A stretch of 61,972 bases of DNA, filler included, from Platydemus manokwari (taxonomy: Eukaryota), in NCBI GenBank assembly GCA_037951405.1. It is 5 parts of 5 records of this genome, joined end to end, with 100 filler letters (N's around TTAATTAATTAA, not from the genome) between each part and the next. Parts side by side here need not be neighbours in the genome. Positions count along the whole stretch, not along the records: positions 1 to 16,654 come from JBBMOY011155882.1; positions 16,755 to 26,552 come from JBBMOY011203432.1; 3 more parts are not named here. The stretch is one strand, 5' to 3'. A program made the translations under genes and the position numbers. Shown piece by piece: positions 1,504 to 25,962 of this stretch. The notes below the pieces were generated by a model that did not search any database, was not told the DNA's origin, and saw only the letters and a list, made by a program, of their open reading frames with translations. Positions within the stretch are counted from its first letter, which is position 1; every line of letters begins with the position of its first letter.

Positions 1504-3553
1504 TAATGTCAACCTCTTAAATTATAGAACTGGCATAAAAGAGCTACGATTTGAAAGATAAATCTGAGAGTATTTTCCATGCATTGGAAAATAACATTTT
1601 TACAAATTTTAGTTCTAAATCATGTGATACTTAATGTATTAAGTATATTATATATGTATTTGTATGGCTCCATAAATCATAATTATTAAACATTTAAGAT
1701 TCCAATACTTAATTCAATTTCATAAAGTATTGGGAGGTATTTATTGAAATATCTTGTGTTTTCCATTGAGTCAGTAGTATCTAAATATAATATTTTTAAC
1801 TTCTATCCACTACGTATATATTTATTGAACCATATGATTATCAAATGCACTGCTGAAGTAAGATTAAAGTCATATTAACTTTCGACAAGTAGGCTTTTCG
1901 TAATTTTAGACCCGCAATTTTAAAAAATTCAATTAAAATGAATCCAATGCATATTTAAAATGGTGTATTAAATTTTTTACCTGCACTAGTACAACTATAT
2001 ACACCAGAACAATATAATAATAACAAGTCATTTTAATTACTTCCAAAATAAAATCCTTGATTTATCAAAAATGTTTCATTATTACCTTTTTAATTAAATC
2101 CATTCATAAATTTAGTTTTTCGGTAATTTTCAAGTACTGCGATCTATAATTGTCAACTTTTTAACAAATCAAACAACAATTCGCCGAACTTTCCCATATC
2201 TAACTATATATATTTGTTTATCTAAATAACTAAATAAATATAAAGTAAATCCCGCACATTTTCATAATATTAATAAATTATCATTATTTATCTTTTGGAT
2301 TTTGGAATAAATTTGACACTTTTGAATGGTGGGTGATCATGTGTGACATTTTTCATTTGGAATATTTATCGGTTAGAATCAATAAATAATGATGAAATGT
2401 GAAAAAAGATAATCGAAATGCCACAAGTCAATGGTAAGATGAAGATATTATTCAGAAATTTTGTTTCCAATTATTAGAATATCGTGACGTGTCGACGTCT
2501 ATATTACAAGAAATGACACTTCAAATATATGATTCAACAAAACACACACGAAATAATAATTATTTTATAATTGATGTTACTATTCTGTGTGCTAGTATTA
2601 AAAATTGAAAAATATTTTCTCTCCAATCATTGAAATCAATCTTATGAAATAGAAAGTGTATTGATTCAAGTTTAATTAAAGTGAAAAACAATATTATATC
2701 GACCACAAAGTTTAAATAATTTTCAAGTGATTAGACAATAATAATATTTTATGCATCCCAGGTTTTTAAGAATAATCTTGAAAAGCTAACGAAGAATTTA
2801 AATAAGTCAGCCCGTGTTAAAAACTAATAATTTGAATTGAATTTGATATTCTAATGGTATTAATTCTATTACTACTAATAATAATATCAATTATACTTCT
2901 ATTGTTATCTTGCTCATTCACATTATTGGTAATCTTTAAGTTAACCATATCTCATTTTAAAATGTCTCAAAGTGCTATCAATGAAACAATTGGTTTAAAT
3001 AAAAAGGCTAAAATCAAAGCTCTGAAATTTTCTATTAAATTTATTAAATTAAAGATGACATTCAGTATTTAATATACTTCAAGATTTATTTCCAATTAAA
3101 ATCCTAATTGTAAAAATCGATCTCATGGTTCCATAATAGTTCTTATGGTGTTTAATGCAGGCTACTGGACCTAATAAACCTCATATAACTTATCGATTCT
3201 ATAATTCTTGTGATTTTAGCTTATTTCCTTTGATTGTCACAAAACCTTGTAAGATTTACTTCAAATAAAATTTATGAGTACGATGACAAGTATCCCATTG
3301 GCTTTGAACATTCGTGCTTACTGGTCTTCGTTCAATACATTATTTCAGAACGTTTCTAGAAAAACGGTATAAGGTACTTGATATTAGTTACATAATATGA
3401 GGACAAAAAAATATAATATGTGAATGTGCTGTAATGACCTAATCAATATTTACCTATAAACAAACGTAGTACACTTCAGATTAGTCCTGCGATCATTGAT
3501 GGGTGTCACTTTTACACATCGAATAATATTTTGATTATTCTTAATTTTAGATA

Positions 3554-3992
3554 GGTCACAAAAACAACCAAAGTATTTACGGAAACCATGCAAATAACCC
3601 TCAAAGAGTTAATGCACACAGATTCCACAAGTGTACATTCAATATTAAGAACTCGATAATCAATTGGCGCATATCAACAACTGGCAACAAATATCGAGAT
3701 TCGAGAAAAACAAGAAAATTTTCCAACTGACCGACGTGTGAAAAGTGATGCTCTGAGACATCAAGTGCACACACACAAAAAGCCTATAAAGGAAGTTGAA
3801 TTTTACTAGCAACTGTCAGTCTTTTTGGTCGGTAATTTGTGTTCTGTGTGACTTACTTGATTATTTCGACAATCCGTCTTTGTGGTTGTCTTCTATTTTG
3901 TCATTTGGCTTTCAGATGCTGATCTCACCGTGTTGATTAAGATTGATTTTGACCGTATTTAGTGATATTCGGGTCTTGTTGTCTGTCGTGAT
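3554..3992 (+). mobile_element. Dispersed repeat, probable solo LTR (copy 1)
   Basis: Colinear similarity to 43600-44072 (e.g. tgagacatcaagtg, aagcctat..a.gaagttg, ctttgtggttg). Ends resemble TGTCAC...GTGACA; internal cctataaa TATA-like motif. Confidence 0.45.
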
Positions 3993-6900
3993 TTATAACT
4001 AAAATGTTCACCATTCAGCATCAGATGATATCATTAGCACTTATAATGTGTCAACAATTCGATACATCACTCAAATCTTGTGTCCCAATTTCAATAATTG
4101 ACTTTAATGATTTTTAATAATTGGATATTCTATGAAAAAATACCCCTTGTATATGTGCTTATTTCCAACTTATTTTTCGGTGTTTTTTCAATTTATTTTT
4201 GGATATTTGCAGTTTATCAAGAAAAAAATCTCAAAAGAATTCTTGGAATAATTATAATGATAATATTTTATTGCAAGCTAAATATTAAAGGAAATTATAA
4301 TATTAAGTCAAATATTAAAACAAAAATTAATCAAGAAATTATCAAATTGAAACAAATAGATTTATCAGAAATGATCAAAAGAAGTTAATAGAAAATAGTA
4401 ACTGCAAAAAAGAAACAAACAATTGAGGCACTTCAAACAAAACCAATAAAAATTTTCTTTACAAAACTTCCAAATCAAGCAAGTGCTTAACGAAATTAGA
4501 AGTTAAACTGAATGCAGCAGACTTATCATTAATCAAAGATAATAATTGGAATGGAGAGTAGACTTTCTATTTTTCTTATATAGTTTAACACTGAAACGAA
4601 TTGTATTTGCTCTTTAATCTACATGTATATCAGATATCAATAGGCTCTACCTAAATCGCAATGCATTATAAGTCCAATAAATGTAACGGAATTATTAATA
4701 TTGCTCGTTTAATGTTTATATAATAATCATCCATTATTATAATTATCCATCACACAACTCACTTCTTGAGTTTAAACAGTATCTCATAGGGATTATACAG
4801 CAACTCTATTACCTTCAATTTGTATCTTGTTATCCACATTATACCTAACTATCTCGAGCAATATAATTATCACAATTTATTCTTTTTCCATATATCTTGA
4901 AAATTCTACAATCTGGCAAATAAACAAGTATATCACTTGTGATGAATTAACTATTATAAGGGGAGCTTTCAAATTACTATTTCATATTAGTTAAACAAAA
5001 TAATAAATTAGAATTTATTTATCATGTCACAGTTGTTTTAGGGGTATATATAAAATTAATGATAATAATAATTAATAAGATCAATGTGTCGTAATAAATG
5101 TGATACCTGGAATGATAACAAAGTAATAAAATTATGGATGCTCACAATAACTATTAAGTGTTTTTTCATAAATTATATCACTTACTAAAAAGTTTTAAAA
5201 ACCAATTAAATTATTAAATTAATTTTACTAAAATATGGAGAGCTATATTTCCCATAAATACTCGTAGTATCAACGTCACAAAGCAAGATACGGAATTTTA
5301 TAACCCAGGCTTGATTTAATTTAAATTAAATTCCTAGGAATTTTCTCTGAATATAATCCCTCAACTTAAATCGACTAACAAAGCTATATATAATTATTCT
5401 ACGGCTTCTATCGTAACATAATCAGAATCAGTTGAATAAAGCGATAATTTTCGTGAGACTTCAAGATATTTCCATAAGTAATAACGACTGCTTGAAATTA
5501 AAAGGGCTCTGATATACGATAAAAATTTAAATAGGATTACTTACTGCCTATACTGATAAAAATGGATTAAATCTGAATCAAAAACTTGATGAAGAAACCA
5601 AATTAAAATTTTGTCTACATCATAGTGGTTAGCGTTTGAAAATTTTTTGGTTATGATTGCTTGGGTGGTACGTAAAACACCATGGTGTGTTGTGGTGTTC
5701 TTTGAAACTCAAATAAGTAGCTTTGTTGAATATTGAAAAACTATAACAGTGGAATAATAATTAATTATTGTGGAGAATCAAGTGCAGTCCTTTGTTTCAA
5801 TAGTGCTTAAGTATTGAAATTAATTTTCCTATTGTTGTGTTAGTGTTATTGGTCGATATCTCATTCAAAAATTCTAGTTGAGAATAACCAAAATAGCAGT
5901 ATGGATTTTGCTCATAACTGAATTCATTAGTCCAATTTAATTAACTTTTAATTGGAAAATATTTTTATTTTCAAGACTGCAGTCGCAGTTTGGATAAAAA
6001 GAATTGAAAGTAATTAAATTTATTAAAAATTCTTGAGAAAAATTCTCAAAAAAATGTGAAAGAAGAATAAAATTTGACAAAATTTATTTACAGACATCAA
6101 TATAAGTCACAGATCAAAATCAATCATTGATTAAGCATTAATAACACTAAAAATGGAAGGATTAGGATTTTAACTTAAAATGAACCTGACTTGAAGTGCT
6201 TATGTGTGGTTTCAAAGAGGTCTGAACAAAAATGATCTCATTGAGCAACCTGTTAGAAGAGATCATTATCTATAAAATCCTGAATGATGTGCAATGAACA
6301 AATTTGGATTGATTAATTCAATATTTGCTACAATCCTGCGCTAAAATATAATCCCAAAGAGAATAAATGTTTATTTGTTTAAGTAAAGATTTTCAAGGAA
6401 TCTGAGAATCAAACACAATGACCCAAAGGAGGAATTCCAAAAAGGCTTTTCAACCTAAAATTATAATAGATAATTTAAAACTTTTATTTTGTAAAAATAA
6501 CAATGGGATTATACTTTATATTATATAAAATCATTGTCAAAAATTACAAGAAAAAACCCAACAATGATTTAGGAATACAATTATTTTACTAACATTCAAG
6601 CTTGTTATTAATTGGTGTTTTAAAGCTGTAGTGATGAAAATTGTTCATCTATGTATTATCTCTTAGAAATTCATTTTCAATCTATCTGATTCCAGCGGCC
6701 ATTAGAAATCACACCTCAATCAACTGATGTTCATAAAACCAAATTACTTGAAAGGTTAAAAGATTTCTAAAAATTGATAATAATAAATATTAACCTATCA
6801 TTATGTTTATTATTTTATTACTTTATATGATAATTATATAACAAACAACCACAAGTATGTGATACATAGGTATAAACATGTAAAACATTCAAGAATAATT

Positions 6901-7298
6901 TTATTATAAGATACACATGCTTTTCGATCTATCTATTGTTGTTATTTCTGTAGCATTTTGCTCATCTTGCATTATTTAATATTATTATTAGTTGTACTTT
7001 TATGTATCGAAAATTTAAAATAAACCTTTGATGTTCATTACTTCACATTTTAAAATAATTTTTTACATATCTACCATGTAAATTAAAACAGAATTTCAAT
7101 TTATTAAAACCATAAAAAACTAATATTTGAATTTATTAAATTACCAAAAAGGTTTTAAAATTAAAAAAACTATCGATTGAAATTTGAAAGTTTTGTCTAT
7201 TTACACCTGAACAGCATACAAAACTCAAAATGAATTTTGTTTAACTATAATTCCAAAATTTATCAACCTTGAAATAATGTTTTTAATTTATCAATATA

Positions 7299-7764
7299 TG
7301 GCTTAAGTTAAGAAAAGGGGTCATTTGACCTGGTTTTGTAACAATGAATTTTCGCACATGATATAATTTTATAAATCTATTTTATATAAAATTGCGATGT
7401 TTGATTCATTCTTATAATTCACTTGATATTTCACCTTATATATATATAATAATAGGGACAAAACATAGTTTTAAAACCAATTTCCTATTCTAATCACAAC
7501 AGTTTTATATGATTATTATTATTTGAGTTTTTAAATTAAAATTTTTTAATTATAAATCAAATTAGTTAACTACAGACATGTTTGATAATATCATTGTTTA
7601 TTTTTACAAAATAATTGTAAAATTTGAAAGTATCTCAATTTGATTCCAATGTTAAACAAAGGGTCCTCGTTCATTTCCAACAAGTTGCAATTGCATCTGC
7701 CTTGGTCCTTTTTCAAATAATTAGATAAATTTTATTTTAGGACCACTTTTCTTAGCTTTAGCCG
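7299..7764. mobile_element. MITE family A, copy 1 (TA-flanked, Tc1/mariner type)
   Basis: Left end tggcttaagttaagaaaaggggtc and right end gaccacttttcttagctttagccg are imperfect inverted repeats, each next to TA. The interior aligns with 56156-56730 and 59836-60440. Confidence 0.75.
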
Positions 7765-8769
7765 TATATACAATTAAAAGAAAGATTTTGGTTGTTTGTA
7801 AATCTATGCCAAAGATGACTGAATAAAAGTTATATGTGCTCTTTAGAAAATATCATTAATTCTCGACTGTAATTAATAAATCATGTTTTGTGATTCAATG
7901 CTTGGATTATAGACATGTCTATAAACCGATTTATTTAAGATTTATGACAGTTGAGATAAAAGAAGCCACTAGTAAAGTTGTAGATGTGTTATTAAGAGCA
8001 AAAAATATTGTCGTTAAAGAATTTGAAACAAAAATATTTTTAATAAGCTAAAATAATTTGCGAAAATACACCAACAATAATATTAACAACTGGAAGTTGA
8101 TCTGATCCATTTTGTTATTCCAGTAAATTAAAAATATATCCAGCTTCACTTATTGCTATGCCATCATAACTTAGAGAAACGAAGGCCTGCTAAATTGAAA
8201 TTTTGTATTCAAAAACTTCAAAAATAAAACAATATCAAAAAATTAGTATAAATAAATTAGTATAATTATATTTGTTGTTATTATGATAATTATAATTTAA
8301 TATTCAATAATAATAATAATAATATTATTATTTATAATGTTATTATATTACTCAATTATTGCTGTAATTTTTACACTCATTTTTCTTTATAAATTGTTGG
8401 AGATTGATTTTGTGTTTCTGTAGAATATAAATATTAATTCAAATCGTCACAGCACACCATTTGTTTCATATCGACTGAATACTTGAAATTGAGATAAATT
8501 AATTTATGAATTTATATTTTGTTTTTTTATTTATATGAAAATGAATTTATCATAAAATTCACGAATTTCTCATGACAAAAGTTTTGATTCCATAACGAAA
8601 TATAATGGCATGAAAGTCAACTGATTTGATTCAGTAAAATCTGACCAATGAAAATGTGTAAAAGTTTCACTATTTCTATAGTGTTTGTTTCATATTTGGA
8701 TTTGAATTCCACAGAATAATTCCATAATAAAGTGTGAAAAACATTTTCATTTCTTGATGTCAAGATATT

Positions 8770-9374
8770 ATGTTGATCTGGTTTATTATCAGTTATTATT
8801 TATCATGTAAATCTTTGATGACCAAACAAATGAAAATCGACCATTGTGATGGGAATTTAAATCTTCCAGCAGCATCGGAGGAAATCTTTCCGATTTTTAA
8901 GTTAAGATTATTTGAAGATAAAAAGACTATACCAGTTCACAATCAATTTATAGAGACAGGCAAAAGCTATTCGTTCCATGCCATTTTCTTGGAACCGGCA
9001 ACGATACAAAATGTGATCATAATCGCATCACCAATATTCAATTCAACGAAAGACATTGATTTGGGATTTTTCGATGACAAATTGTACGACAATCAGAGAT
9101 TATGTTTTCCAAGCTTATTGTTCAGTCTTCACAAAGAAAGTTTGATGAGATTTGCTTTCAAATGGAAATCATCAGAAAAACCGAACACCCATTGCATTAG
9201 ATTCGATATTTATTTGCAATTCTTTATCTATCAAAACTTTAACAGGTGGCGAAAATTTAGGTTGGTTTCATTATAATATTTTACAAATTAAATTTATAGA
9301 TTTGTGTTGAAACCGGAGGGTTTTGCAAATATTTGAATGACTTCTATTGCAGGAATATTATGGAAATGTTTTGA
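8770..9374 (+). CDS. Secreted Reeler-domain-like protein (probably 2 exons; 3' splice uncertain)
   Basis: 168-aa ORF with a hydrophobic N-terminus and F.WKS...CIRF motif resembling the Reeler F.W.AP....CV.F. A putative 35-nt intron (9265-9299) adds ICVETGGFCKYLNDFYC... Confidence 0.45.
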
Positions 9375-12300
9375 AAAGATACTAAAATGATTTATATTTT
9401 ACTGACATTAAAAATATGATTCTAGAAATGAATAATTGTTTTAAAATATTACTTATCCAGTATTTCCATTGAAAATATAATTGAATCAATTGGTGTGATC
9501 ACTTAACGGAGCAGAGATATATAATAATCATCTTGTAAAGAAAGAATTAGTTAAGTTTATCATCAATCAGTTATTTTTCTTGTCATCTTTTGTGATGATC
9601 TTTGCGCAGAAAGTGTCCTTTGTGAATGGGAGCACAATTAATAAACTCTCTCTTTCTCACTTTCTCTTTCTCTCTCTACATATGTATTTGTATAACGAAA
9701 CTAAACATTAGTGTGAAAATTCATCTCCTAAAATCATCTCTTTTTCTTATTAGCAAATCAAAGCAATGCAAATAACTTTTAAAACTTTCTCGACTTTACA
9801 TTTTTTGTGCTTTGATGTTTATCTGATATGGTACTAAAATGTTACGAAGGACTGCAAAATCAGTTATATTCTCACAACTCATTATCCAGACATCGTGATA
9901 TAATAAAAGTTTTTTAATTTAAAATGATGTGTGGACTCAAAATACATAAACAATTCGATCAATAGGACCATTTTTAAAATTGATTTTCTTAATTATCTTA
10001 CTTTCAGTTAATTTAAGCAAACAACATGAGAATCTGATTTGTATTGACTTAATGGCCATCGGGATATTTTCACATAATTCTTGATTCTCTTGCTATAGAC
10101 ATACATGGAGAATAATTATCACTTCATTTCTTTTCATCGCCTTTACATTGATAAATCGTTAAACCAAAACCAAGAAGAAATTTTGTGTTTTAAACATCAT
10201 ATTGATATCCAAATTGATATTGATTCGTTCCGCCTATTCCAGTAAAATTTATCAATATTGGCCAGTTAGCGATAATTATACATTCCGCTATTCTGATTAA
10301 AATCAAAGGTATTTTGCAATCATGGACCGGTTATCTCATTAATTGCTTATAAACCTTTTACACCGAAATTCCTGTTATTGTATATTAACAGCAATTATTA
10401 CTGTTATTTCTTATGAACTTGGAATAACATTTATCTTTCTAGTTCATTGGTAATTAAAGTAGTTGGGTGTTATTCACTGTTTTCAATATTTCTTCAATAT
10501 TAATAAATTCCTTTGAAATATTTTGAAAAAATAAAATTTTAAAACAAAGCCCTCATTTTTATAAATTTTATTTCTCACTTAAGCTTTCATTGATTTTTAA
10601 AAAATTAAAAAATTAAAAGCTTTTTAAAATTTATTAAAAATATTTTTTAACAATTGTAAAATTAGCTTAATCTTGTCAACTATTAGAAAGTAATTTGTTC
10701 TCTTTTGTTTATTCCTTTAATTATGATGTCGATCATTGCACGTTCAACACAGGACCTGGCAAAAACTGTGCTCTACTGACTAAAGGAATGTTCACTATAA
10801 ACTATTAAGTATATAATTATAAATCGAATGATAATAGAGTAATTCGTGATAAGCTATTTCAGACTAAATGAGGAGATATTCAGAGCGAGCACTCATCTGA
10901 TATTCGTAATCGTTCCTTGTTTATTAATTTTGCTTCAGTCAAATATTATAACAGTAATTTTCAATAATTCAAAAGACATAGGAGTTAATGGCTTTATAGA
11001 GAAATTTATTTCCTCGACTCTAGCAAAGAAAACGAGACTTTATGTACAGCGTTGTTTTAAAAGTTGATAAAATTTTCTTCTTCTACTAATTGTAGCTATC
11101 ATGTTTCGAGTTTTTATTTTTATGGTACATAATTCATAATTGTCGAGAAAATAAATCTAGAATTTCAATAATTAAATCTCTTGGTCCTTGAATATTCAAA
11201 TTCAAGCCGTTAACTTATAGAAAATATCGTTTCGGAATGTTACTCCACCCACTAATTATCATCAATAAGCAATTTAAATCCACTATTTATTAAGTGAATA
11301 TTAAAAGACGAATAGAGTGATTACTTTTTCTTACGAAACCTATAATATTTTTCAATGTAATAGTAAATATTTAAATTATTAACCCATAATGTCATGAGAA
11401 CGCAATTCTACACGCAACAACACAGTTTAGCAGACACCGTAAATAGTGAGTGGAAATAAACGTTTTCTTTTACGTTCGATAAAAAAATTATTTCATTAAT
11501 TTTTACAATAGGAGTTAATGGTGCCTAATCAAAATATTCTCACCTAATACTGAATTGATTATCTGCACTAACACAAAACGTTATCAGTGTTGTGTGAATG
11601 AAACCAAATACATTAAAAAGATTTTAAAAATTTATCGTTTACTATTATTATTTAAAGTATTCTCCGATATTGAATATATCAGAAACTAAACTGTGTGGTG
11701 TGGGAGTTTATTAATCCACAAAGTGCTGCTCAGCGGTATCGAAACCAAGAATTAAATACATTTAATGAGAACTGATTTAAACTTTGACAATAATTGGATT
11801 CCTAGCGGCAGCAAGCCATATTTTCGACGTGTTTATAATAAAAAGTTTGCACATATTTTGAATGCTAAATTTTTATTAGCTGATCTCTTTCTCACAGTTG
11901 AAATAGGTTTATTGATTTATCATAACCGTTATAGGTCAATCCCTGTGTATACAGTAGGAGTTTCGCAGTGATGCATATTCCCTTATAAGATTATTCGCTT
12001 TATGTTGCTTCTGATTGATTGGTTATCATTCCTGTACAGCTGTGCATCAAAGTATCAAAATAGAGGTTCCACACTTCCTTGGGGGTCTTTTATACTCAGC
12101 ACTTATAAGGAACCAAAATATATTTATAACGGTCAAATGTTAAGTGAAAGTGAAGCTAAGTGAGATGGCCGTGGGTTTAATCCACAAATTGATGAATATT
12201 GAATTGAGAAATTTTGATGAGTGCAAGGAAATATATTAGTAGCTTTTTCAACGATTAAATTATCAAAGCTTTCTATCCACTTCAATTCTTACACACAGAT

Positions 12301-13960
12301 TACGTTAAAATCTACGACACCACTATAAATTGCAGAAAATCATAATAAATTATAAATCTCTAGGGGAGATCTAGATAATCATTTGTGTGCTTATCAAATT
12401 ACTACAATAATCTACTGTAGATGCCAAAGAAGCCATTCGATTTTGGAAAAATGATAATATAAGATTTTAAGAAAATAATAATAATAATAATAATAATAAT
12501 AATTATTATTATTATTATTTGGCATTTATCAATTTGATCAGAATTAATCTTAATTAGCTGTTATACATGAGCTGTCCCCAAGGCGATTTTTAACCGTTAT
12601 TGGCTAGGAGAGTGAAATTGTTTAATGAAATTATATGTCCCAAATTAAATATCTCTAAGATAATAAATATCATTCATAAACATTTCCACTATTTTTGTGT
12701 ATTTCTAAGAATTAATCAATCAAAATGTAAACAAATAGTTTTGATTCGCTTTGAGAGTTATTATTCACAAATAAAATCTTTTCCAAATCGAACGCATTTA
12801 AACAAAAACAAATTTTAGTGATCATAAAATTCATTTCATAAAAGTATTGAATTATTGGTATGGCTATTGAATATTTAATACTCTAGTGAAGTGCGTCACG
12901 GGATGATGATTTGAAAATCGATTTTATAGTTATCTTTCAATTTTCCACTCTACTAAAATCTGGTCTAAATATCAATCAATATGTTGATGTTTTGATTTTT
13001 CAATAAAATCCCTCAATTGCAGCAATTTTTTAAAAGTTAAAACATCTGTTTATGAAGAGTTCCGAATTTTATAAGTTGGTCTTTTGTACCAATGATCCGA
13101 TTCTTGTTATCTCTTAGATTGCATCAGCCAAAAGATATCATTTTTAAGTATGAATATCGAGAATTTTTAGTAATTTAATAATATAATTACTTAAATAATT
13201 CAAATAATTCGAATTAATAATTTTATGGTGAGATAATTTTGATGAAATGTTTCATAATAAGTTATCTTTCAGTTTTTGAATGGTAAGATCCATTTCAATC
13301 AATTATTATCATTACACATCCAAAAGATTCCCTCATTGTGATGATATTTATAAAACAGCAACAAATTATGATGATATTTTACAAATCGTTGAAAATAATA
13401 TGCGATAGACGTGTTTATTCCACTCGAAATGAATAAAATGTCTAAGCTAAATTTCCAACGAATACTAAGAACAAAACTGATCAATGTTATACCTGATATA
13501 GTTATGGAAATTATGATGCATAAATCATATGGTCACCGAACTATAAATCTGAGTTTTTTATTTAATGTTTTTTTTATTATAAATTATGAAGTGTTATTTT
13601 TTGCCAGCAGTTCGCCTAAAAACATAAAATTGTTGAAAAATAGTGACATAAATGAATAATTTATTCTTGCCTTTTTATTTTAGCTATAGAAAGTTGGTAA
13701 TATATATAATAGGCCATCCATCGAGCATATTCTTAGATAAACATGATTCTAATAGGAAATCTTTTATTAAAAATCTCAAATTAAAGGTTGTTAAATCTTA
13801 TTTGTCTGTCATTACAGTTTTTAAAATCTAAATCAGAATTTAATACAGAAATTCAAACCAGGAAACTAAATCACGTAGTCGATGAAACAATTTAACTGCC
13901 AATGCTTGGGCAAAAATGATGAAATTGGTGAACTTATTATTAAATATTTGATGTAAATAT

Positions 13961-14150
13961 TGTAAGCCACTACTATTTTTATACCGAATGCATCGAATTG
14001 AAAAGGCACGACATCAAATTCTATTTAAATACAATTATTTAAAAAAATAATTATAATTTTAAATCAAATTAAATTTAATATAAAATTAAATTCAATATAA
14101 AATTAAATTCAATATAAAATTAAATTAATTATTTAAGTGTTGAATATCAA
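13961..14150 (-). mobile_element. Solo/partial LTR of the TRIM-like family
   Basis: Begins tgtaagccactactatt and shares gaaaaggcacgacatcaaatt with the LTRs at 14911 and 25359. Contains about 3 copies of a 17-nt unit (aattaaattcaatataa). Confidence 0.6.
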
Positions 14151-14910
14151 ATAGACTTGAAGATAAAAATATTTATTGATTAAACACAAGTTCCCACTAA
14201 TACAAATATCAAATAACATAAACACCGTTTGCTTCTATGGGCTTCAACTGGCTTCGATTATCAATCACCTGCACAATACAAAAACTAATAAATAATATTA
14301 TTTTTGCTGTCTTCTACTGACCAGCAGTAATGCAAGCTGAGACAATTACATTCAATAGTATTGCTTGTTTTCTATTTAATGTTTTGATTTCCAAGATCAA
14401 TTGGGATTGGTCAATTCCTGTGTTTGTATCATCCAATAGGCAAGAATTTTGTAGAATTTAAATCTTCGTTCTTTATTGATCTTGATTGATAGGTGATCGT
14501 GCCTGTATGACTGTGCAGCTATTTACGTATGCGAAATGTCATTATTTGAGATTCCTCTACACAAAACACAATTTTACGAAAATAAATAAATTCCTAATTG
14601 AGCAACATGAATTTCAGAAAGAGCTATTAAAAGTTTGATGTTCAAAGATATTTTTGTATTCTTCTGGTCTTCGAATTCTATTAAAATAAATAAAGGAAAA
14701 AATCATTTATTTGAAAATTTATGTTGACCAAGCTGGTTTTTGCGCGGTTGTCTTTAATAGTTTTGAATCATGGGAACCCGATAAATGTCGATTTCGACTT
14801 GTTGATAAGGACCCGTAACCAGGTACAATGAATAAATTTATTAAACTAAATCCATAAATAGTTATTTATTCTAAATATTACACTGAATCAATAATTCTGA
14901 TCAGTTCACT

Positions 14911-15407
14911 TGCAAGTTACTACTATTTGACTCACGTTTTGAAATAAATGAAAAGTCACGACATCAAATTATATTTTGATTGCAATCATTGAAACAAATT
15001 TAGTTTTATAAGAATATGATTTTCAAATTTTAGTTTATCATAAATCCTCACATTTTCCTTTCTTTAAAATCTTTGATTTGCTCTTATTTCTTAACTATTC
15101 CTCTCGTTTATATTTTCTTTATATATATCTTCTTTATATCTGCACTTTTTCTTATCTATATCTTCCTTGCGTCTTTTCATATCTTCCTTCTTTAATTCTA
15201 TATTTCTATACAATAAAAATTCTCAGAATCGAATCCTAACCCATGGTTGCCAAGGAAGTTGTTACTATTAGACTCACGCTCTAGAATCTAGCTGAAAGGT
15301 CACGTCATCAAAATATATTTTAATCACAATCATTCAAATAAATAAAAATTCTATAAAAATCTGATTGAAAAATTGATCAAATTTCCGTTTTATTATAAAT
15401 CCTCACA
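14911..15407 (-). mobile_element. TRIM-like miniature LTR retroelement, copy 1
   Basis: Direct repeats 14911-15052 and 15253-15407, both ending aaatcctcaca. On the minus strand the 5' LTR is followed by TGGCAACCATGG...GGATTCGA (PBS-like) and the 3' LTR is preceded by aaagaaaggaaaa (PPT-like). The ~200-nt core is non-coding. Confidence 0.7.
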
Positions 15408-16654
15408 CTACTAAAATATCATCTGGAAATTCTTTAAAAATTTATGAAGCGTATTTTTCAAGAAATTTATACTCTTCAAATTGGTTTATCTAATCATCAC
15501 GATGCCTTGTATATCATTTGAAAATCAATACAACCGAATGTAATGAATTGTCGACATTTTTTTTTAAATATTTATGTACGAGTGGTTTGAAAAACAACTT
15601 GTGCTTATATTTCTAACGATTCTTGATTAGAATTTCAAAGTACTCTTCCTTCAAATTTGACAAATGAATAAAGCAGTTATTGTCATTTCATCGTTTCATA
15701 ACTGATTTTACTAATCCGACAGATTTACTGAATTTTCTTTTAATCATGGTATTGATTTCCCAAACAAATTTCCTATCATTTGTAGTATTCCGATAAATTT
15801 CCTTCTTCAGTAAATAATTTTCCAATTTTACTTGAATATTAGGAAACAACATTATTAGCTTTATCTTCATCGACATCTGGTTTTTTCACTGTTAACCAAT
15901 AATAATTATAATGATTATTAAAACAAAATACATTTTTCAAATTAATTCAATATATTACCATGTTTTCATCAAATTTAATGAAATCTCATCAAAAAGTGCA
16001 CATTTTTATTGTTTTTTAAACGAAAGATTACCTTAATTTGCACAGCAATTTGACTTTCATTGGTTAAAAATGACTGAAAAATACGTTCACCGCTTTTATA
16101 TTTTTCAATATTATATTCACTTATTATTGGAGAATCAAGTTCAACACTAGTTAAACGAAAACTCTAAAATATTATATTGTTTCGAAACAATTATCGAATA
16201 AGATTTAGAAGCTTTTGTATTAATTTGATATTTGAAAAATGATTCGACTCATTGATTGCGACTCTGCAGTCTTGGTAACAATTTTATTCTCCAACAGGTA
16301 CTCAAATAATAAAAATATATGATTTATAATTTTGCTGAAAAGATATGATTTACTGGATATGGATGACAAACGGGTTCATATGGCAGAACTTTAGAGCAAT
16401 ATAAATGACTGAGATTTGCATAGCATAGGGAAAACTGAAATCCAATGTGTAACAAAATGAAGATTAAAATATTAAAGCTATAATGATAATGATAATGATA
16501 GTGTTAATAATAATACTTGTAATAATGATTAATATTTAATAATAAAATTTTAATGTATTTAATCTTGGGTTATACTGTTATTGGGTGTATAACCTTAAAA
16601 TTTCGATTTGATAAAAGATGTCGCTGGGAGTATTGCTTGCATATAATGTCGTAT

Positions 16655-16754
16655 NNNNNNNNNNNNNNNNNNNNNNNNNNNNNNNNNNNNNNNNNNNNTT
16701 AATTAATTAANNNNNNNNNNNNNNNNNNNNNNNNNNNNNNNNNNNNNNNNNNNN
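16655..16754. other. Assembly gap spacer (44 N + TTAATTAATTAA + 44 N)
   Basis: Identical 100-nt construct seen four times; the 12-mer gives stops in all six frames. Confidence 0.97.
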
Positions 16755-19149
16755 CATATAATGAACGAATAAGCAGGTTTTGTAGTCTACTTTATCAATA
16801 GAATTATTTAAAACTATTTTCTTAATAAAAATTAATAATAAACTATATAAGTATTATGTTTCGTCTCTTTAATAATGCTAATATTTCAATATTAGACAAT
16901 AATAAATAATGAATCTAAAAGCTATGAAAACATTTATGATCTCATTTACATTTAATAATAGATTGACTCTAATTCAAAGATTTTTAATCGGATAAATTAA
17001 TCCCATAAACATTAATAAAAATATTGTAAGAATCTTTCATAAAATAACCACACCTAATTACCTACAATTTTTATCAAACTAATATTCATGTCTTTTCATT
17101 AAAATATCAATTCAACGTCAACAAATTTCATTAAATTTCAACAAATAATAAGTATTTACTTTCGCCATCTTTTATTTCATTTCTTTTTCAGCTGATATGG
17201 AAAATTACTGATTTATTATTGTTAAAATCGATTAATTCAAAAGCGATAACATCTCATTTTAACGCTGCATACAAATTGTTGCGATTTAAACAACATAATT
17301 ATACTATTTAATATAATGAATATAATTAAATATTATAAATTTATACAGGGAAGATTATATGATCAATTTGGCATTAGTAGAGATAAGTTACAGTATATCA
17401 TAATAAAGTAAATTTAACATTGATGTATTAAAGTATATTGAGCACAGAGTAATGAACAACAGTGATAAATCTCTCAATTTCTTAACTACAATAATAAGAG
17501 TTTCAAATGAAGCTTGTTGTTGAACTATAGATATTAAAATCTATGAAACCATTATAAATAAATCTTATTCAAGAAAAGAATATTAAAATCTTTATAGACA
17601 ACGTAATTTTGGAAATTTAATTGAATGTTTGAACCCATATTGTATAATAAAAAACATTTATTTAACTGAACTATTAAAATTAATCATATTTTAAATTAAA
17701 TTATAATTATATATTGAATTTAAATTTATGAGAAATATATAATGAAAAACACACGATGATGAGCAGCTTTGTAAATGGCAGAGAATATATGAAACAAAAT
17801 ATGCTACACTGAAGTGGATATTGAATTTAATGAAAGACGATGTAAATATGCATCATTATAATTTATTCTGAACATTTATTATTTGGAAATTGTTGAGATC
17901 TATTATAAATTAAAACCAAAGTTCCGCAAACACTTGATTATTAATACCAGTGACCATATATTTGTGGCATATGTTAACAACAATTACCTGACAATGCCTG
18001 ATTATAAATGGTAAAGCATGTTATTGATAACCAATTATAAACCACGTTATTTATTAATGTTTATAATGTTTACTTCCTTAAATTCTAAATAACTAAATTA
18101 TATTTAAAAATAAAAGTAAAATAATCTAAATAATTTAATTAAACCTTTCTCGCTGTATAAATTCCATAATTTCGGTATTTTTTACTAGCAGCAAATAATG
18201 TGTTTAGAATTTTCAATATCATTCAAATTCTTGATTATTTATGTATGATATACAAGATATTATGTAACAAAATTACCATTAAAACATATTCTCCATCCGC
18301 AAACAGGCAAATAGTAATTAGGTTAAATAAAGATGACCTGAGTTGGAATACATTAAACAATACATTTTAAATTCGAGTTCATGAGTAAACTGATGAGTAT
18401 CACGATGCACGTATATCGATTGATTGTCTCTTGAAATGGTGGATTTTTCGATCGGAAAATTCTCATAATTTTTGCACTTCATATTACTTAAAAGTATTTT
18501 AGAACTCAAATCCACAGGACATTACTTAAATATATGTGTAATTAGATATAAAATACCACCCACGCACCAAAAACGACAAATATGCTTTTGTCTCAGCAAA
18601 AATTACAGGAATTATAATAGTGAAATTTAATCCCGTGAAATCAATTCAAGTAACACATGGAATTGTTCCAGTTCCATTTAATTAGTGGCACCTAATTTTA
18701 GATTTCTAAATTATACCGTTAATATTTATTCTTTGCTGTTCTATTAAAACAATAATCAAATTATAATCCTAATAAACGATTTGTCACTGGTTGTCACTTC
18801 AGTAATGTCTAAACAATTCAATTACTGCTGTGATGTCACTTGAAATTAAAATTAAAATTTTATATATGAAATACAAAAAACAAAAAAACTAATATTTATT
18901 AATAAATATTGGATAAGTGGTTAGCCAGGTATCACGTGACTTATAATTATACATTTTGTCTTTCGATTGACTCTAATATCACATTAGCTTCTTTACATGG
19001 TCTCGTCCAGTTTACATTGTTACGTCCGGTAAATTGTCATCGTCCTATGAGTCGTAGTCTATTTGTATTCACTCGTCATTGTTCATTATCACTGGTTGGT
19101 GGTTCTCTGCATTCTTTTGTTCCGTGTGGAATTGCCCTTGGAGGAACGA

Positions 19150-19660
19150 TGCATTAGTGTTTGAATTAATACAATTCATCGCAATTTTATTGATAATTTG
19201 CTGCGTCATCCGAGTTTTCTAAAGATTATATCATTTGAATTCATTCATGTTCCGAGAGCTGTGTATTTTGGCCTATTCTATTTGAAATCATTTCGAAGAT
19301 TGGCATACTTTTATAGATTTTTCTTATTGGTCTCTTATTTCAGTCTCGGCTTGACCATGGGGAATTTCACATCGATCAGCATAATTGCTGATTATTTTTT
19401 CGTTGATCATCTGCAGATCGATTCGAAGATTAAAATCAGAGAACTAGCACTTCTTACAGATATATATTTTGTATTCAATGTTATTGACTGCCCAATTTAC
19501 TGCTATGTTCATAATTTGGTTATGCCAAAACAACTTGTAGGAGTTTGACGATTTACAAATAGTGAATATATGTGCTTGCGATTCTGTTGAATAGAGTCAT
19601 TTGCTGTAGGCAATTGCGTTTACAATTTAGCAAGTTATTTCGAATAATTTCCATTTGATT
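19150..19660 (-). mobile_element. NeSL/R2-type non-LTR retrotransposon 3' fragment (CCHC + restriction-like endonuclease)
   Basis: Minus strand, across frameshifts: CKRNC...ESQAHIFTIC...WHNQI...LRIDLQMINEK...IMLIDVKFP...KYANL...ALGT...NDIIFRKLG. This is the CCHC / RHN / PD..D / KY / GALG.W pattern of RLE domains. Confidence 0.7.
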
Positions 19661-20127
19661 TCATAAAACAAAAGAAAAGTTAAAAATATTACAATGCTGA
19701 TTAAAACAATGGAATTTGAAAATGGACGAAAACTTTACAAAAACAAACCAACTTTTATTTATTGTCTGGACCCAATAGTCAATAGTGCTGATTCGACTGT
19801 AACTAATAATTCTACGACAGCTCCGATTTTACTGTCCTGCTTTTGGTTTTAGTTTAGAATTAGAATTATATATAGATAGTATCAATCTTAATGAAGCATA
19901 GTTATAACAACCATTCCCACTTTATCGTACATCTCACAAAAAATATTTTGTACTTTATCAACGCATATATATATTAGAAGTAAAAGATTAAATTCAGATT
20001 TTTATTTGTTAAAAATACAGCAAATTTTTTCACACACCAAAAAATAAAATAAATAAATTCTAATCTTGTATTTTTAAAATTCAATGAATTAAAGCATTCT
20101 GATAAATGAAAATGTGGAATTGTTTTA

Positions 20128-20621
20128 TCATTCAAATAAATATGTAATTAAAAGAATCAATAGAGATTGTAATATCATTGTACAAGCTGGTCCTGTCCAT
20201 AAGAAGGGATGATTTTTCGGCCTTTTATATATACAAACAACCACCAAGCAAGCTCCTGAATAAAAATAATGATAAATACTTGCTTTATATAAATAAAAAT
20301 AACCAGAACCTGTTAGTATCAATAGAATTGTTGATAATGTTTTCAAGAAAGCATTATGTCTCAATGTTTCCACGAAATTTGTTAGGAATTCGAAAAGCAC
20401 CACAATTATCAATGAGAATATAGCTACTGATAATAAATACGTGAATGCAATATCTCTCGGAACACCTTAATCATATTTGATAGGAAACTGGAAAATCTAT
20501 GTCATAAATTATTACTAGATTTCGGCTGCTCTTGACTGTCTTGAATGAGAGCGACAATACTAAAACTCAAAGCAATGCAGAATACAGATGTAAGAATTCG
20601 TTTAGTAATGATTGAAACCAT
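20128..20621 (-). CDS. Small four-TM protein, paralog C (129 aa, 3 exons)
   Basis: Exons 20621-20516, 20465-20310, 20255-20128 with GT-AG introns, both phase 1. Open frame MVSIITKRILTSVFCIALSFSIVALIQ...LLILLITYLFE with four hydrophobic segments. Confidence 0.75.
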
Positions 20622-23366
20622 AGTAGTTATTTAGAAATGGGTGAATTTATTACATATTTATTTCTTTTTAACGTTTTGTTGTTTGTTTTATAATCAATTT
20701 TATTGGCTGATTGGTTAATACGTCAACCGTATATCGATCAATCAGTAAGGTATTTTGCAAAAAAAGGTATATATTATTGATTGGAAAATAAACTTAACAA
20801 TTGTTCGCATTAATTTATTTATAAATACTAAATGATTCATTATGAAAACCAATCAAATTAAAGGAGTTTTAACAGAGTAACTCCAGAGTGATCTGTTATA
20901 CATGACATTGAAACCAATGCGAATTTTTGAAAATTTATAATTATTTCTAATTTATTTGATGTTAGACAAAGTCATTATAAATTTCTTCAATGGTCGTTAT
21001 ATCATAAATATAAATCTTATAATAAAACTGTATAACATGTTTCAACTCCCAGATTATCGGTTCTAGAGTTAAATTATTAGACACAATTCCGGTAAAACTA
21101 ATCGTGATTAATAATAACAAACTGATCATAATTGCAGCGGTTTATTTTAACTATATTTCGAATTTGATTTAACGTATAAAATATTTTCAAAGATAACACA
21201 AACTCATTGCGAATCATGCACATGATGAGTAGTTAACACTCATCTGAAGTTGTTGAAGTTATTTCAAATCAATTTTACCAAAGATCAATTAATTATTATA
21301 ACAAAAATTTACCAACTTTAGAATCGGTTATACATTTTAATTCATATAAGAATTTGATTTGAAATTATTATTTTATAAAATTAAAAATTAATTTTTGACT
21401 AAAATCAAGAACTGGAACTGTTAAAGAGTCTGTTTAAATGCAAAATAGAACTTTATCAAAAATAAAATTATAATTATACTTCAATTTCTGATTAAAGTTT
21501 TTAATTAAAATTTAAAATTGTTAGATAAAGCGTCGTCAGTAAAAAATTCATATTAACATAAAATTGACGAATGGGTCCAATATTTCGTTTTAAAATTTTA
21601 ATTAAAAATTATTTTTCCAAGTAAATTTAGCTTGGAAATTTTTTTGTAGAATTATAAATAATAGTAGTTTATCAATAAAACATTAATAGTCAATCGATAA
21701 AACTTAAAATTTATCATTAGGATTAATAAGTGCGTGTTGGAAAAAATCATATTTCTAATCCTAACATCCAGTACGAAATAGCAATTTGCGAAACAAAATG
21801 AAAATATTTTGATGTAGAAATGAAATCGATGAAATATTTTTATTGAGCTATTTGACTGCTTTTCAAAACTTATGCAAATATGTAGCTAAATATTGTTACA
21901 TTTTTTCCAAATTTGTCTCTAAAAGCATTAATCTAATCGGTGACTTTTCTAGAATCGTTAATTGAAATTCATATCTTCATATTTCTATTGCAAAGATTTT
22001 ATGGTTCAATCATAGAATCAATGTTCTCCGTCGAGCAACAAAACCATTATAATTATTTCTTTTAATACCATCTCGTTGAATTCTAAAACATGTTAGGATT
22101 TTTTTTGATGAAATCTTTAGTAGTACTTACACATTTTAAAGTTCTATTGGCTGGATTGACGAAAAAAAGACTAAATATATATAATAAAAAAAATCTGTAA
22201 ATAAATTAGAAAAACAATTAAAGAAATGATTTTAAGTTACTGCTTCACTAAATATGAATGGAAAAAAACAATCGTTTTCTAATCAGTGTATTACTTTAAA
22301 CTATAGTAAATACCATTGTTTTTTGGGATCGATGAAATAACTATAAGAGTTAGAGAGAACAAAATACAAATTTAAAAATAAATTTATTATTTATTTTATT
22401 TATATTATTTTATATAATTATAATATAAATTTTTGTAAAACTTGTCTATTTTTAACTTTTTCTGAAACTCACCTTATACCTGCTATATATATATAATTAT
22501 ATAATTATGCTAATAATGAGCAATAACTTGTAAATAATTCAATGTGATTTCAATATTAAACCCAAATATAAGAATACTGTATTGGGAAACATATATTACT
22601 ACTTTAATTAGATTTATGATATTTACTTTCTTAAACATATTTAAAAATCCCATGAAACTTACATCGCGCAAGTCAAATCTTACAGTTTTAATCTTTGAAG
22701 TATTTTTGGAGGCTGAATGGGCCATTAGTATTAGAAAACATCATCACAAAGAGAGAAATTAAACTTATTAGTAAATTAGTTAGATTATTTTGTATATTAA
22801 AAATATCTGGACGAAAATCTTTATGCAAATGGATAAATGAAGAACATACTTTTGAAATCCATTGAAATAATGGGATGCGATAAGTTGGACATTAAAGGGA
22901 TTATAGGAACGATAAAGGGTAGTTATTATCTTAATAATTAATTACCTTAATAATTAATTCTGTTTATAATTAATAATACATCATTTTATTCGACCTTAAC
23001 GAGTATTTATTAATTGATTTAAAATTTATCTCTAAAATGATCAAGTAGTGATTGGTAAGAATAACATTTGTACCAGGAGTTTTTGATTTTTTTTTAATTG
23101 AAAAGTAAAAGTTAATAATTGCTGCAGTACAAAGAAATGGAAGAATTGTTTGAGTTGGTTCAATTTAAAATTTATTACCGCCGGAACTTATGTGTACCGT
23201 GGTTAGATGTGAAATGATTACCATATATTTGAATAACATACAAATTGATACTTATCAGAAAACCAATTTAAAATCACAATTTGAAGTTCTCATAACAAAT
23301 TATATATAGACGGTTTTTGCTTAACGATTAGAAGACATTGTAATTTAAAGATTCAACAGATTTAGC

Positions 23367-23907
23367 CTAATAATTAGCCTGATTGACTGGTGTTTCACTT
23401 GGAGGTTCGTCAACAAAATTCGAATAAGTTGAATGATAAAGTACAAGTGCTTCAATCGTCAAAGTAGTTGCGACAGTATGCCAATTTGCAAAAGTTGAAT
23501 GTTGGAAACTTAATGATAGAACCAAGAAAAAAACTAAAAACAATATTCATTTCATTGAAAATTTAACAATTCATGACTTACTCAGGACAATTAGTAATGC
23601 GTATCTCGAATATTTTAAAACGTTATTATCTTTCAATTGAGAAATTTTATTTTCCAAAACCAAAGACACAATAGCTATAATCATCAATATCAATGAAATA
23701 ATGATAAAAACTCCTGTTGCCGTAGGATAATTGGCTAAAGATATTAATTAAAATCATTGGTATTTAACTAAATAGTTAGATATAAACATATAACTTACTA
23801 AATGTGTAGTCCCATGGAAATTGAATAAGGGAAATAAATACACAAAACAACGCCACACCGAAAACCAATATGACAAAGTTTTCCCAACTTACTGAAATAG
23901 TAAGCAT
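23367..23907 (-). CDS. Small four-TM protein, paralog B (142 aa, 3 exons)
   Basis: Exons 23907-23799, 23734-23582, 23533-23367; gtaagt donors, both introns phase 1. MLTISVSWENFVILVFGVALFCVFISLIQFPW...PVNQANY. Not in the ORF track. Confidence 0.8.
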
Positions 23908-24528
23908 TATTATTAATAACACTTAATTCATTTATTTCACATTATATATTCAACAGTCTCAGTATCGGTCCGAAAGTTCATTAGTCAAGTACGATCATAT
24001 GTAATTCTCTAACGTAAGCACGAATATCAAAACTAAAATAATTTGTAAATATATAATACTGAAACTGTGAATCGAGACTATAAGTCACTACGAAGAGTTC
24101 AGAAAAATAATTAAAATAATTTAAGATAGATAATTGTTTTATTTTATTAGATTATTTAACAAAATTATTTATTTATTTTTAATATTCACTCAAATATTCT
24201 AAACATCCAATTTATATAAACCAGTCCAAAGTTCAATAAATTGCAATTACATAAAATAAAATTTGTTTGTCTTTTACACGAAAACTTATTACAAACAATC
24301 CGAATAAAATTTCAAAAATAGCTAGAATTTTGAAATTTAACATGTAAAGATTTCTTATTTCAATCCAAAAGATGATTTATGATTGACATTAAACATATTA
24401 GTTTTAATAATATTTCCAACAAATCAAGTCGAATTAAGATCCAACTGAACAATAATTTTAAAATATTTATAAGCTTTAATTAGCACACGATTTATTATTT
24501 CAACAATCCATTACGTGAAGCCCGATAA

Positions 24529-25054
24529 TTAGTTCGAAATTTCACGATTATTATCATCATGGTGATTTCGATAAGTTGAAATATAAATTGTCAAGGCGGC
24601 AACAAGCATAATGGTACTGTAAAGATGATATTGACTGAATCCTGAATATCTCAATCTCGATGATATAATCAGTGTTGCTACTAAACAAATAAATTTTAAA
24701 AAATATTTTTAGAACCAATCATTCCATCACTTACACAGGACTGATAGTAATATCTTTTTACCAATTTTGAATATCCTATCATTCTTGAATCGATCTATTT
24801 TCTCTTCTAAAACACAGGCTACAACACCTAAAATCATTAAAATCAACGAAATAATGAGAAAGGCTTCTGCAAGCACAGGGTGATTGGCTAGATATGAATT
24901 AATTTTTTACTAAATATTTGATTTATATTTCAATTAATAACGTACTATATGGTGGTTCCCATCGAAATTTTATAAAAGAAATAAATGCACAAAACAATCC
25001 CAAACTATATACGTAAGTAACAAATCTTTCCCAGCTTATTGAAATAATAAACAT
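24529..25054 (-). CDS. Small four-TM protein, paralog A (137 aa, 3 exons)
   Basis: Exons 25054-24946, 24887-24735, 24680-24529. Exons 1 and 2 have the same lengths as in paralog B (109, 153 nt). MFIISISWERFVTYVYSLGLFCAFISFIKFRW... In-frame upstream ATGs (to 25126) are alternative starts. Confidence 0.8.
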
Positions 25055-25358
25055 AATTATTAATCCAAAAACCATCCACATTGCATAATATATATACATG
25101 TTTTCCTTTGTCAGTTCGAAGTTCATCAAACTACGTTAACCATAATCGTTTGGATTTAAAGATATGTTTACAAATATATCAACTCTACAATCTCTACATT
25201 TAAAGCGATGTAAAATCAAATAGTAAATATTAGTAATCATAACTGAATAAAGACACAAATATTTACTGTAATAAAATTTAAATTAATGAATTTATTAGAT
25301 TATTGTGAGGAAATTTCTATTTTTATTTGCTAATTATAATCTAGAAAATCGTTATATT

Positions 25359-25962
25359 TGTAAGCCACTGGTATTTCATAAATGACACATCGAAAATGAA
25401 CTGAAAAAACATGATACCAAATTATAATTAAATACAATTATTTAAGCAAATTAATTTATTATTATGCAAAAGAAATTAAATTTTATATAAAATCCAATTT
25501 TATACAAAATTAAACCTTTAAACAATTTTAATTAAATTTAAATAAAATCTTTGATTTTCTTGTATTCTTATTGGTTTTGTATCGAATGCTCACATATTTA
25601 ACTACATAATAATCTCTAGTTCTTCTATCTGTGTTATATCTTCTCTAAACCTTCTTTATAACTTCTCTACATCTTCTTTATACATTATCTATGTAGTCTC
25701 AACATCTTTCTCCTTCTGTTCCATTATTTTCAGTAATTGATCTACTCAGAATCGAATCCTGATATGTGGTCGCCTTATAAGTCACTACTATTTTAAAAAC
25801 AACAGATTAAAAACGAACTGAAAAGACAAGTCACCAAATTATATTTAAATACACTTATTTAAGGAAATAAATTTGATTTTATACAGAATTAAAGTTTATA
25901 TGAAATAAAATTTTATGCCAAATTAAATTTTTAATATTTTAATTCAATTTAAAATGCTCACA
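25359..25962 (-). mobile_element. TRIM-like miniature LTR retroelement, copy 2
   Basis: Repeats start tgtaagccact (25359) and tataagtcact (25776); the second ends aaatgctcaca (25962). Shares ctcagaatcgaatcct...tggt.gcc and the CT-rich core with copy 1. The inner end of the left LTR and the PPT appear deleted. Confidence 0.65.

What the first reader, a model, noticed from the sequence alone, without database searches (positions are those of the whole stretch)
13961..25962. TRIM-like miniature LTR retroelement family with a tRNA-Arg-like primer site
Seen: two 0.5-0.6 kb elements (14911-15407, 25359-25962) and a solo LTR (13961) with 140-190 nt direct repeats of consensus TG...CA, a non-coding core, a TGG-initiated PBS next to one LTR and, in copy 1, a purine tract next to the other. 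Knowledge: this is the architecture of terminal-repeat retrotransposons in miniature, best documented in plants and less often in animals. The plus-strand PBS (TCGAATCCT...TGGT(T/C)GCC) resembles the 3' end of metazoan tRNA-Arg(TCG). Inference: a non-autonomous family mobilised by an Arg-primed LTR element, abundant enough to occur three times in 12 kb. LTR pairs are visibly diverged, so these copies are old.
Basis: partly seen in the sequence, partly recalled or inferred. Interest (0 to 1): 0.72.

Follow-up and report, generated by a model that had tools for sequence, protein, structure and literature searches.

The report
Miniature retrotransposon cut from Gypsy element
These are old copies of a very small jumping element, likely present in thousands of copies in this genome, that kept only the ends of a larger Gypsy-type retrotransposon and likely borrowed its enzymes; the kind is well known, but here the parent lineage can be read from leftover scraps of two genes.

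Summary
Real, and a TRIM. The family is LTR (about 150-200 nt), core (about 200-260 nt), LTR, read on the window's minus strand, with TG...CA ends, a purine tract and 5-bp target duplications (12 of 34 and 8 of 29 exact; shuffles 0.7 and 1.0). At least 334 junctions exist, likely thousands. LTR pairs are about 81% identical, so most copies are old. Corrections: 'three in 12 kb' is a packing artefact (two contigs); the primer site is 12 nt and matches a host tRNA-Arg(ACG), not TCG; the longer 'tRNA-like' stretch is mainly the start of gag. New here: the same genome holds Ty3/Gypsy families with the same LTR tips, primer site, purine tract and 5-bp duplications. Their Gag reading frame runs across the LTR end and primer site, and Pol runs through the purine tract. 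The mini element keeps about 20 gag codons and 15 integrase codons, so it is likely an internal-deletion derivative of that lineage. Its LTR body matches neither family, so the direct parent was not found. Repbase/Dfam could not be checked. The scan had not noted this before.

The parts
13961..14142 (-). Solo LTR of the family (closer to copy 2: 77-82% than to copy 1: 73%); its 5' end is decayed; AATAT on both sides
   Evidence: right boundary inferred from alignment and the flanking 5-mer
14911..15052 (-). Copy 1, 3' LTR (142 nt, TG...CA)
15053..15074 (-). Copy 1, purine tract and last codons of the integrase relic, abutting the 3' LTR
15053..15252 (-). Copy 1, non-coding core (200 nt): gag-start relic, purine-rich filler, integrase-end relic
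15241..15252 (-). Copy 1, primer binding site (9 of 12 bases match tRNA-Arg(ACG) plus CCA), directly after the 5' LTR
15253..15407 (-). Copy 1, 5' LTR (155 nt; starts TG, 3' end decayed)
25359..25545 (-). Copy 2, 3' LTR (ends CA; its first bases and the purine tract are deleted)
25546..25775 (-). Copy 2, non-coding core (230 nt) with gag-start relic
25764..25775 (-). Copy 2, primer binding site (9 of 12 bases match; first base mutated)
25776..25962 (-). Copy 2, 5' LTR (187 nt; starts TG, ends TA); flanks match 4 of 5

Best explanation
A TRIM (miniature non-autonomous LTR retrotransposon) that likely arose by a large internal deletion of a Ty3/Gypsy element and was likely copied by the enzymes of that Gypsy lineage. 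Shown: two LTRs, a 12-nt site complementary to tRNA-Arg(ACG) abutting the 5' LTR, a purine tract abutting the 3' LTR, 5-bp target duplications, many dispersed copies, and homology of the core's two ends to the start of gag and the end of integrase of Gypsy families in the same genome. Inferred: RNA made from the 5' LTR would be packaged by helper Gag, primed by tRNA-Arg, reverse-transcribed and inserted by the helper integrase; solo LTRs and tandem arrays would come from recombination between LTRs. Because the parent's Gag frame crosses the primer site and its Pol frame crosses the purine tract, keeping these signals meant keeping gene scraps. The window's copies are decayed and likely immobile.
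For: TSD: 12 of 34 exact at 5 bp (shuffle 0.72; 0 at 3, 4, 6, 7 bp) and 8 of 29 in an independent pattern-picked sample (shuffle 0.96). tRNA: L033. Helper families A and B: gag with zinc knuckle, then protease-like, RT, RNase H on one strand (L198, L199); integrase, purine tract, LTR in L228; RT relatives carry only Gypsy-type Pfam sets. Helper A LTR 361 nt with the same first 10 bases and ...ACA end; solo LTRs with 5-bp TSD in 11 of 26 (shuffle 0.31). Same 12-nt primer site with no spacer in 23 of 32 gag loci. Gag relic: score 24.5 against 16.4 shuffled for codons 5-19, 22.2 against 18.2 for 15-29 (122 cores). Integrase relic: 26.6 against 17.5 shuffled, and 0 of 71 other Pol windows reach it (40 cores). 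Mini versus helper identity is highest at second codon positions (0.78 against 0.54 and 0.55), mini versus mini is not: divergence under coding in the ancestors, neutral decay since. A piece of helper A sits inside a mini copy (L409), so both were in the genome together.
Against: LTR bodies do not match: local score 37.4 against helper A versus 34.4 and 34.1 for reversed and complemented controls, 31.7 against helper B, 74.1 among minis. No gag-bearing element with a mini-type LTR was found: 0 of 30, 0 of 28 (the two gag-bearing loci had helper LTR ends), 0 of 80. So the direct parent is missing and the pairing with A or B rests on short signals. Helper A LTRs look younger (85-93% among the best 40) than minis (72-82%). 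A second Gypsy group uses the same tRNA (351 exact 13-mers), so the primer site alone does not name the helper. The codon-position test rests on 7-8 sites per class. Signal beyond gag codon 29 is no better than background. The tRNA locus is a partial gene that ARAGORN did not call.
Confidence: 0.88

Rival explanations
1. A TRIM of independent origin that only converged on the helper's tips, primer site and purine tract; the stretch after the primer site would be a copy of the tRNA's T arm made by read-through of the primer.
For: With a 2-base offset, bases 15-24 after the LTR match the T-arm complement at 0.71. Such read-through copies exist in the other Arg-primed group: L031 has 38 exact bases, L081 34 of 39. 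LTR bodies are unrelated to helpers.
Against: The tRNA match needs a 2-base insertion and a 10-base deletion; the gag match is gap-free over 36 bases and more, has a coding signature, and is paired with an integrase relic at the other end.
Confidence: 0.07
2. An RNA polymerase III-driven TRIM (Cassandra, Helenus, Ajax type) or a retrozyme.
For: A B-box-like word lies next to the primer site on the antisense strand.
Against: No Rfam match at E up to 1 in 11 loci; no tRNA in the window; a B box in 1 of 29 LTRs; the word lies in the core, not the LTR, and is explained by gag codons.
Confidence: 0.02
3. A satellite monomer or a chance pair of direct repeats.
For: Some loci are head-to-tail arrays sharing LTRs (L006, L013, L038, L097, L108).
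Against: Arrays are 6 of 40 and 1 of 30; the rest are single insertions on different contigs with 5-bp duplications. Such arrays are common among plant TRIMs (PMC4717578, passages).
Confidence: 0.01

Closest known systems
ta-TRIM of taeniid tapeworms and its proposed helper lennie (Koziol et al. 2015, PMC4558846; passages read)
   Same: Animal TRIM, about 200-bp TG...CA LTRs, non-coding core; helper proposed from shared LTR tip, tRNA and TSD length; many decayed copies and solo LTRs.
   Different: ta-TRIM: tRNA-Leu, 4-base gap before the primer site, 590-bp core with no protein similarity, 142 full copies. Here: tRNA-Arg, no gap, 200-260-bp core with gag and integrase relics, 5-bp TSD, likely thousands of copies; expression unknown.
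PbTRIM of the red harvester ant (PMC3532108; passages read)
   Same: 480-781 bp, LTRs 152-184 bp, AT-rich target duplications, solo LTRs.
   Different: tRNA-Leu, 4-bp TSD, young copies, 264 loci, no helper found.
Plant TRIMs with autonomous partners, e.g. OsajRetroS10 and OsajLTRA10 (Gao et al. 2016, PMC4717578; passages read)
   Same: Under 1 kb, 5-bp TSD, tandem arrays, origin by internal deletion of a full element.
   Different: There the parent is Copia and 94-98% identical, LTR included; here the lineage is Gypsy and the LTR body has no match.
Helenus, Ajax, Cassandra (Kojima 2024, PMC10886601; abstract, introduction and passages read)
   Same: Animal TRIMs whose primer region resembles Gypsy elements; some use tRNA-Arg; LTR homology to the helper is not needed.
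   Different: They carry a tRNA- or 5S-derived promoter in the LTR; this family does not.
Ty1 of yeast, primer site inside GAG with extra boxes pairing to the tRNA T and D arms (PMC4974528; passages read)
   Same: The helper lineage also has its primer site inside the Gag frame; a second box is possible.
   Different: Ty1 is Copia-type and uses tRNA-iMet; the extra boxes are shown there, only predicted here.

Membership tests
TRIM | Shorter than 1000 bp | tested here: met
   407-698 bp (34 elements); 404-741 bp (29)
TRIM | Two direct terminal repeats with TG...CA ends | tested here: met
   147-203 nt, median identity 0.82 in 29 well-aligned pairs; ends decayed in single copies
TRIM | Primer binding site complementary to a host tRNA next to the 5' LTR | tested here: met
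   12 nt against L033, a partial tRNA-Arg(ACG) gene, plus CCA; mean identity 0.89 over 102 junctions
TRIM | Polypurine tract before the 3' LTR | tested here: met
   found with usable flanks at 40 of 105 junctions; present in window copy 1, deleted in copy 2
TRIM | 4-6 bp target site duplication | tested here: met
   5 bp: 12 of 34 and 8 of 29 exact against about 1 in shuffles
TRIM | No coding capacity for mobility proteins | tested here: met
   frame from the junction ATG closes after 5-55 codons in 80 of 80; only short relics
TRIM | Movement in trans by an autonomous element | not testable with these tools
   inferred from shared signals
Cassandra / Helenus / Ajax | tRNA- or 5S-derived sequence inside the LTR | tested here: not met
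Retrozyme | Hammerhead ribozyme | tested here: not met
   no Rfam match at E up to 1 in 11 loci
Ty3/Gypsy (helper families) | gag then PR-RT-RH-INT order, Gypsy-type RT | tested here: met
   pieced from several broken copies in this genome, whole in relative L276
BEL/Pao (helper families) | Pao peptidase and BEL gag domains | tested here: not met
   none in helper ORFs or in the 120 listed RT relatives
A named Gypsy clade (e.g. Mag) | Placement on an RT tree with reference elements | not tested
   no reference set was at hand; Mag elements of Culex have 5-bp TSDs and rarely tRNA-Arg (PMC3286476, passages), a lead only
A catalogued Repbase/Dfam family | Match to a library entry | not testable with these tools
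   no repeat library is offered

The most novel reading that the evidence does not exclude
The mini element turned a gag scrap into a second primer-binding box: bases 15-24 after the LTR pair with the T arm of tRNA-Arg better than the helper's own sequence does, giving the parasite a stronger grip on the shared primer (a Ty1-like split primer site in a Gypsy parasite) and helping it outnumber its helper. Its helper belongs to a widespread, possibly undescribed Gypsy lineage in which the LTR end and primer site are translated as the Gag motif N-M-A-T-T.
Probability: 0.2. Interest if true: 0.55.

Novelty: new member of a known kind. Interest (0 to 1): 0.33.

Why it matters
TRIMs outside plants were listed for only a few animal groups (PMC10886601, introduction), and their helpers were either not found (ant) or proposed from LTR tips, tRNA and TSD length alone (tapeworm). 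Here the parent lineage is written into the core as gag and integrase scraps, which supports the internal-deletion model for a likely animal, Gypsy-dependent TRIM and marks the smallest set of signals that this lineage needs. At a few thousand copies it would make up roughly 0.1-1% of the assembly (arithmetic) and is easy to miss in annotation. It changes no textbook claim.

Tried and rejected
Expression: no RNA holder listed; no verdict. Direct parent with mini-type LTR: not found in 30, 28 and 80 sampled junction loci nor among gag loci whose LTR ends were read; only 150 candidates are scored per search. The other Arg-primed Gypsy group (L126-L137; LTR ends in ...AC/T, sequence after the primer site unrelated) was rejected as parent. 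tRNA-Arg(TCG): not found; the one tight pattern gave 6 hits, one Arg(ACG) gene piece, one reverse-transcribed copy of it, four tRNA-like repeats; another isoacceptor with the same 3' end is not excluded. Second primer box: predicted duplex gain over shuffles is about 9 kcal/mol in minis, 5 in helpers, 4 in L276; shuffles as good 2 and 5 of 1000 for two minis, 64, 47 and 172 for helpers A, B and L276; but L276 lacks the box and only 6 of 43 distant Gag relatives have Asp at that codon, and NCG codons are not rare in helper frames (11-27%), so it is not lineage-wide and may be chance. A conserved micro-peptide: rejected, stop positions scatter and there is no codon signature among minis. Host group: a search with one window exon gave nothing; intron-split chaperonin, TPH-domain and channel exons suggest a eukaryote, likely an animal; not pursued. 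Metagenome scan: 1 of 79 loci was a close relative. Literature: seven searches showed no paper on this family or on a Gypsy primer site translated as the Gag start; subscription papers, repeat databases and supplements were not seen. Earlier scan notes were unrelated.
Full report
Observation. The window is a pack of five stretches. The solo LTR (13961-14142) and copy 1 (14911-15407) lie on contig C1155882, copy 2 (25359-25962) on C1203432, so the density of three in 12 kb is an artefact. The repeats themselves are real: both LTR pairs are 80% identical. The element reads on the minus strand: 5' LTR, primer site, core, purine tract, 3' LTR. The window copies are decayed: 9 of 12 primer-site bases match in each, both 5' LTRs have lost the terminal CA, and copy 2 has lost its purine tract.

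Family. Each copy pulled 40 of 40 scored matches from 4418 and 1619 first-look candidates. An 18-base pattern at the junction has 334 exact matches and none for the reversed control; 79 of 80 sampled matches align to the window copies, and 48 of the 69 with enough sequence have a second LTR end within 700 bases. Only 4 of 57 BLAST-picked junctions carry the exact pattern, which scales to about 4800 copies (roughly 2000-17000; the sample leans to old copies, so this may be high). Elements are 404-741 bp. LTR pairs have median identity 0.82 (29 of 40 pairs that aligned well, range 0.77-0.95, K2P median 0.20) and 0.81 in the second sample (28 pairs, 0.68-0.96). Target duplications are 5 bp: 12 of 34 exact, mean identity 0.74 against 0.37 in shuffles, none at other lengths (34 are the non-tandem elements with both ends found among 105 junctions); 8 of 29 in the independent sample. 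Tandem arrays that share LTRs occur in a minority (6 of 40, 1 of 30).

Primer. A pattern search found a partial tRNA gene, L033, whose anticodon loop reads ACG (read by eye, ARAGORN did not call the fragment). Its 3' end plus CCA pairs with the first 12 bases after the LTR, with no spacer (mean identity 0.89 over 102 junctions). No RNA family matches the element, and 1 of 29 LTRs has a B box, so it is not of the Cassandra, Helenus, Ajax or retrozyme type.

Helper lineage. Asking for other elements with CA directly before this primer site gave two gag-bearing loci among 28. Their gag finds two families, A and B, each with many broken copies (about 35-45% identical to each other). In 23 of 32 loci the same junction stands at the gag start. 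Order is gag with zinc knuckle, protease-like region, RT, RNase H (L198, L199) and integrase, purine tract, LTR (L228); RT relatives have Gypsy-type domain sets, no BEL domains. The family A LTR is 361 nt, starts with the same 10 bases as the mini LTR and ends in ACA; its solo LTRs have 5-bp duplications in 11 of 26 (shuffle 0.31). An intact relative from a metagenome, L276, shows the plan whole: the Gag frame begins inside the LTR, the last A of the LTR and the primer site spell M-A-T-T, and Pol runs through the purine tract into the 3' LTR; no envelope frame. Among 61 distant Gag relatives, 43 have M-[A/S]-[T/S] in the first 45 residues, 32 of them after Asn, as an LTR ending in AACA would give. 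I found no paper describing this, but repeat databases were not available.

Origin of the core. The first 36 bases of the mini core align without gaps to the gag start of family A; copy L410 reads MATTHLDSILKRSTTENY against MATTHMDAILSRLVPEKY in L170. Scores over 122 cores are 24.5 against 16.4 for codons 5-19 and 22.2 against 18.2 for 15-29; beyond that the signal equals background. The last 54 bases before the purine tract match the integrase tail: 26.6 against 17.5, above all 71 decoy windows of the same Pol. Differences between mini and helper fall on first and third codon positions, differences among minis do not (few sites). So the parent diverged from A and B while coding, then lost everything between gag codon 20-30 and the last integrase codons. 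Against this: the LTR bodies do not match A or B beyond AT-rich background, no gag-bearing element with the mini LTR turned up in 138 sampled junction loci, and family A looks younger than the minis. The likeliest reading is an extinct or unassembled sister family as parent, with A, B or that sister as helper. L409, a mini with a helper A LTR and gag piece inside its core, shows they coexisted. The terminal identities are inflated because elements were picked with a mini-derived motif.

Mechanism (inferred from the established LTR cycle): transcription from the 5' LTR, packaging by helper Gag, priming by tRNA-Arg(ACG), plus-strand priming at the purine tract, insertion by the helper integrase with a 5-bp stagger; solo LTRs and arrays by LTR recombination. 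Nothing here shows transcription or present activity.

Bases 15-24 do match the T-arm complement with a 2-base offset (0.71), and predicted pairing is better in minis than in helpers. It could serve as a second box, as in Ty1 (PMC4974528, passages). But it is collinear with gag, absent in L276 and not kept across the lineage. I give it 0.2.

Comparison. All testable TRIM features are met (PMC4717578, PMC10886601). Closest cases are ta-TRIM with lennie (PMC4558846) and PbTRIM (PMC3532108); internal-deletion origin is already shown for plant TRIMs. Of these papers I read passages, and for PMC10886601 also abstract and introduction; passages of PMC3286476, PMC12471100 and PMC10965091 gave no match to this lineage. 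No supplements were seen; they may list such families. Verdict: a new member of a known kind, well supported, with an unusually readable pedigree; interest 0.33.

Noticed in passing
window 7294-7769, 56159-56721, 59840-60437: A second repeat family, 0.45-0.6 kb, 72-82% identical, with 20-29 nt terminal inverted repeats and TTAA at the ends: MITE-like DNA transposon.
   Followed up: partly
window 23572-23917 and 24725-25064: Tandem paralogous exons (69% identical) of a small hydrophobic protein gene on the minus strand, no Pfam family; copy 2 lies about 220 bases upstream of them, perhaps in an intron.
   Followed up: no
L030, L032, L034, L035: Four short contigs with related tRNA-like heads (B box, no tRNA call): likely a tRNA-derived SINE family.
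   Followed up: no
L031 774-786 and L081: In the second Arg-primed Gypsy group, the sequence after the LTR is replaced by a 38-39 base complement of the tRNA 3' half (38 exact in L031, 34 of 39 in L081): likely the primer copied past its usual stop up to the anticodon stem.
   Followed up: partly
L126-L137: A second, abundant Gypsy group with LTR ends in ...AC/T and the same tRNA-Arg primer site (351 exact 13-mers); many copies have only 1.4-3.3 kb between LTRs.
   Followed up: partly
L409: A mini element carrying a helper A LTR, primer site and about 300 bases of gag inside its core: nested insertion followed by deletion.
   Followed up: partly
L276 and proteins P0121-P0182: A widespread Gypsy lineage in environmental data whose Gag begins inside the LTR and carries N-M-A-T-T at the LTR end and primer site.
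   Followed up: partly
window 25585-25600: The core of copy 2-type elements holds a second copy of the LTR's first 10 bases about 60 bases before the purine tract; unexplained.
   Followed up: no
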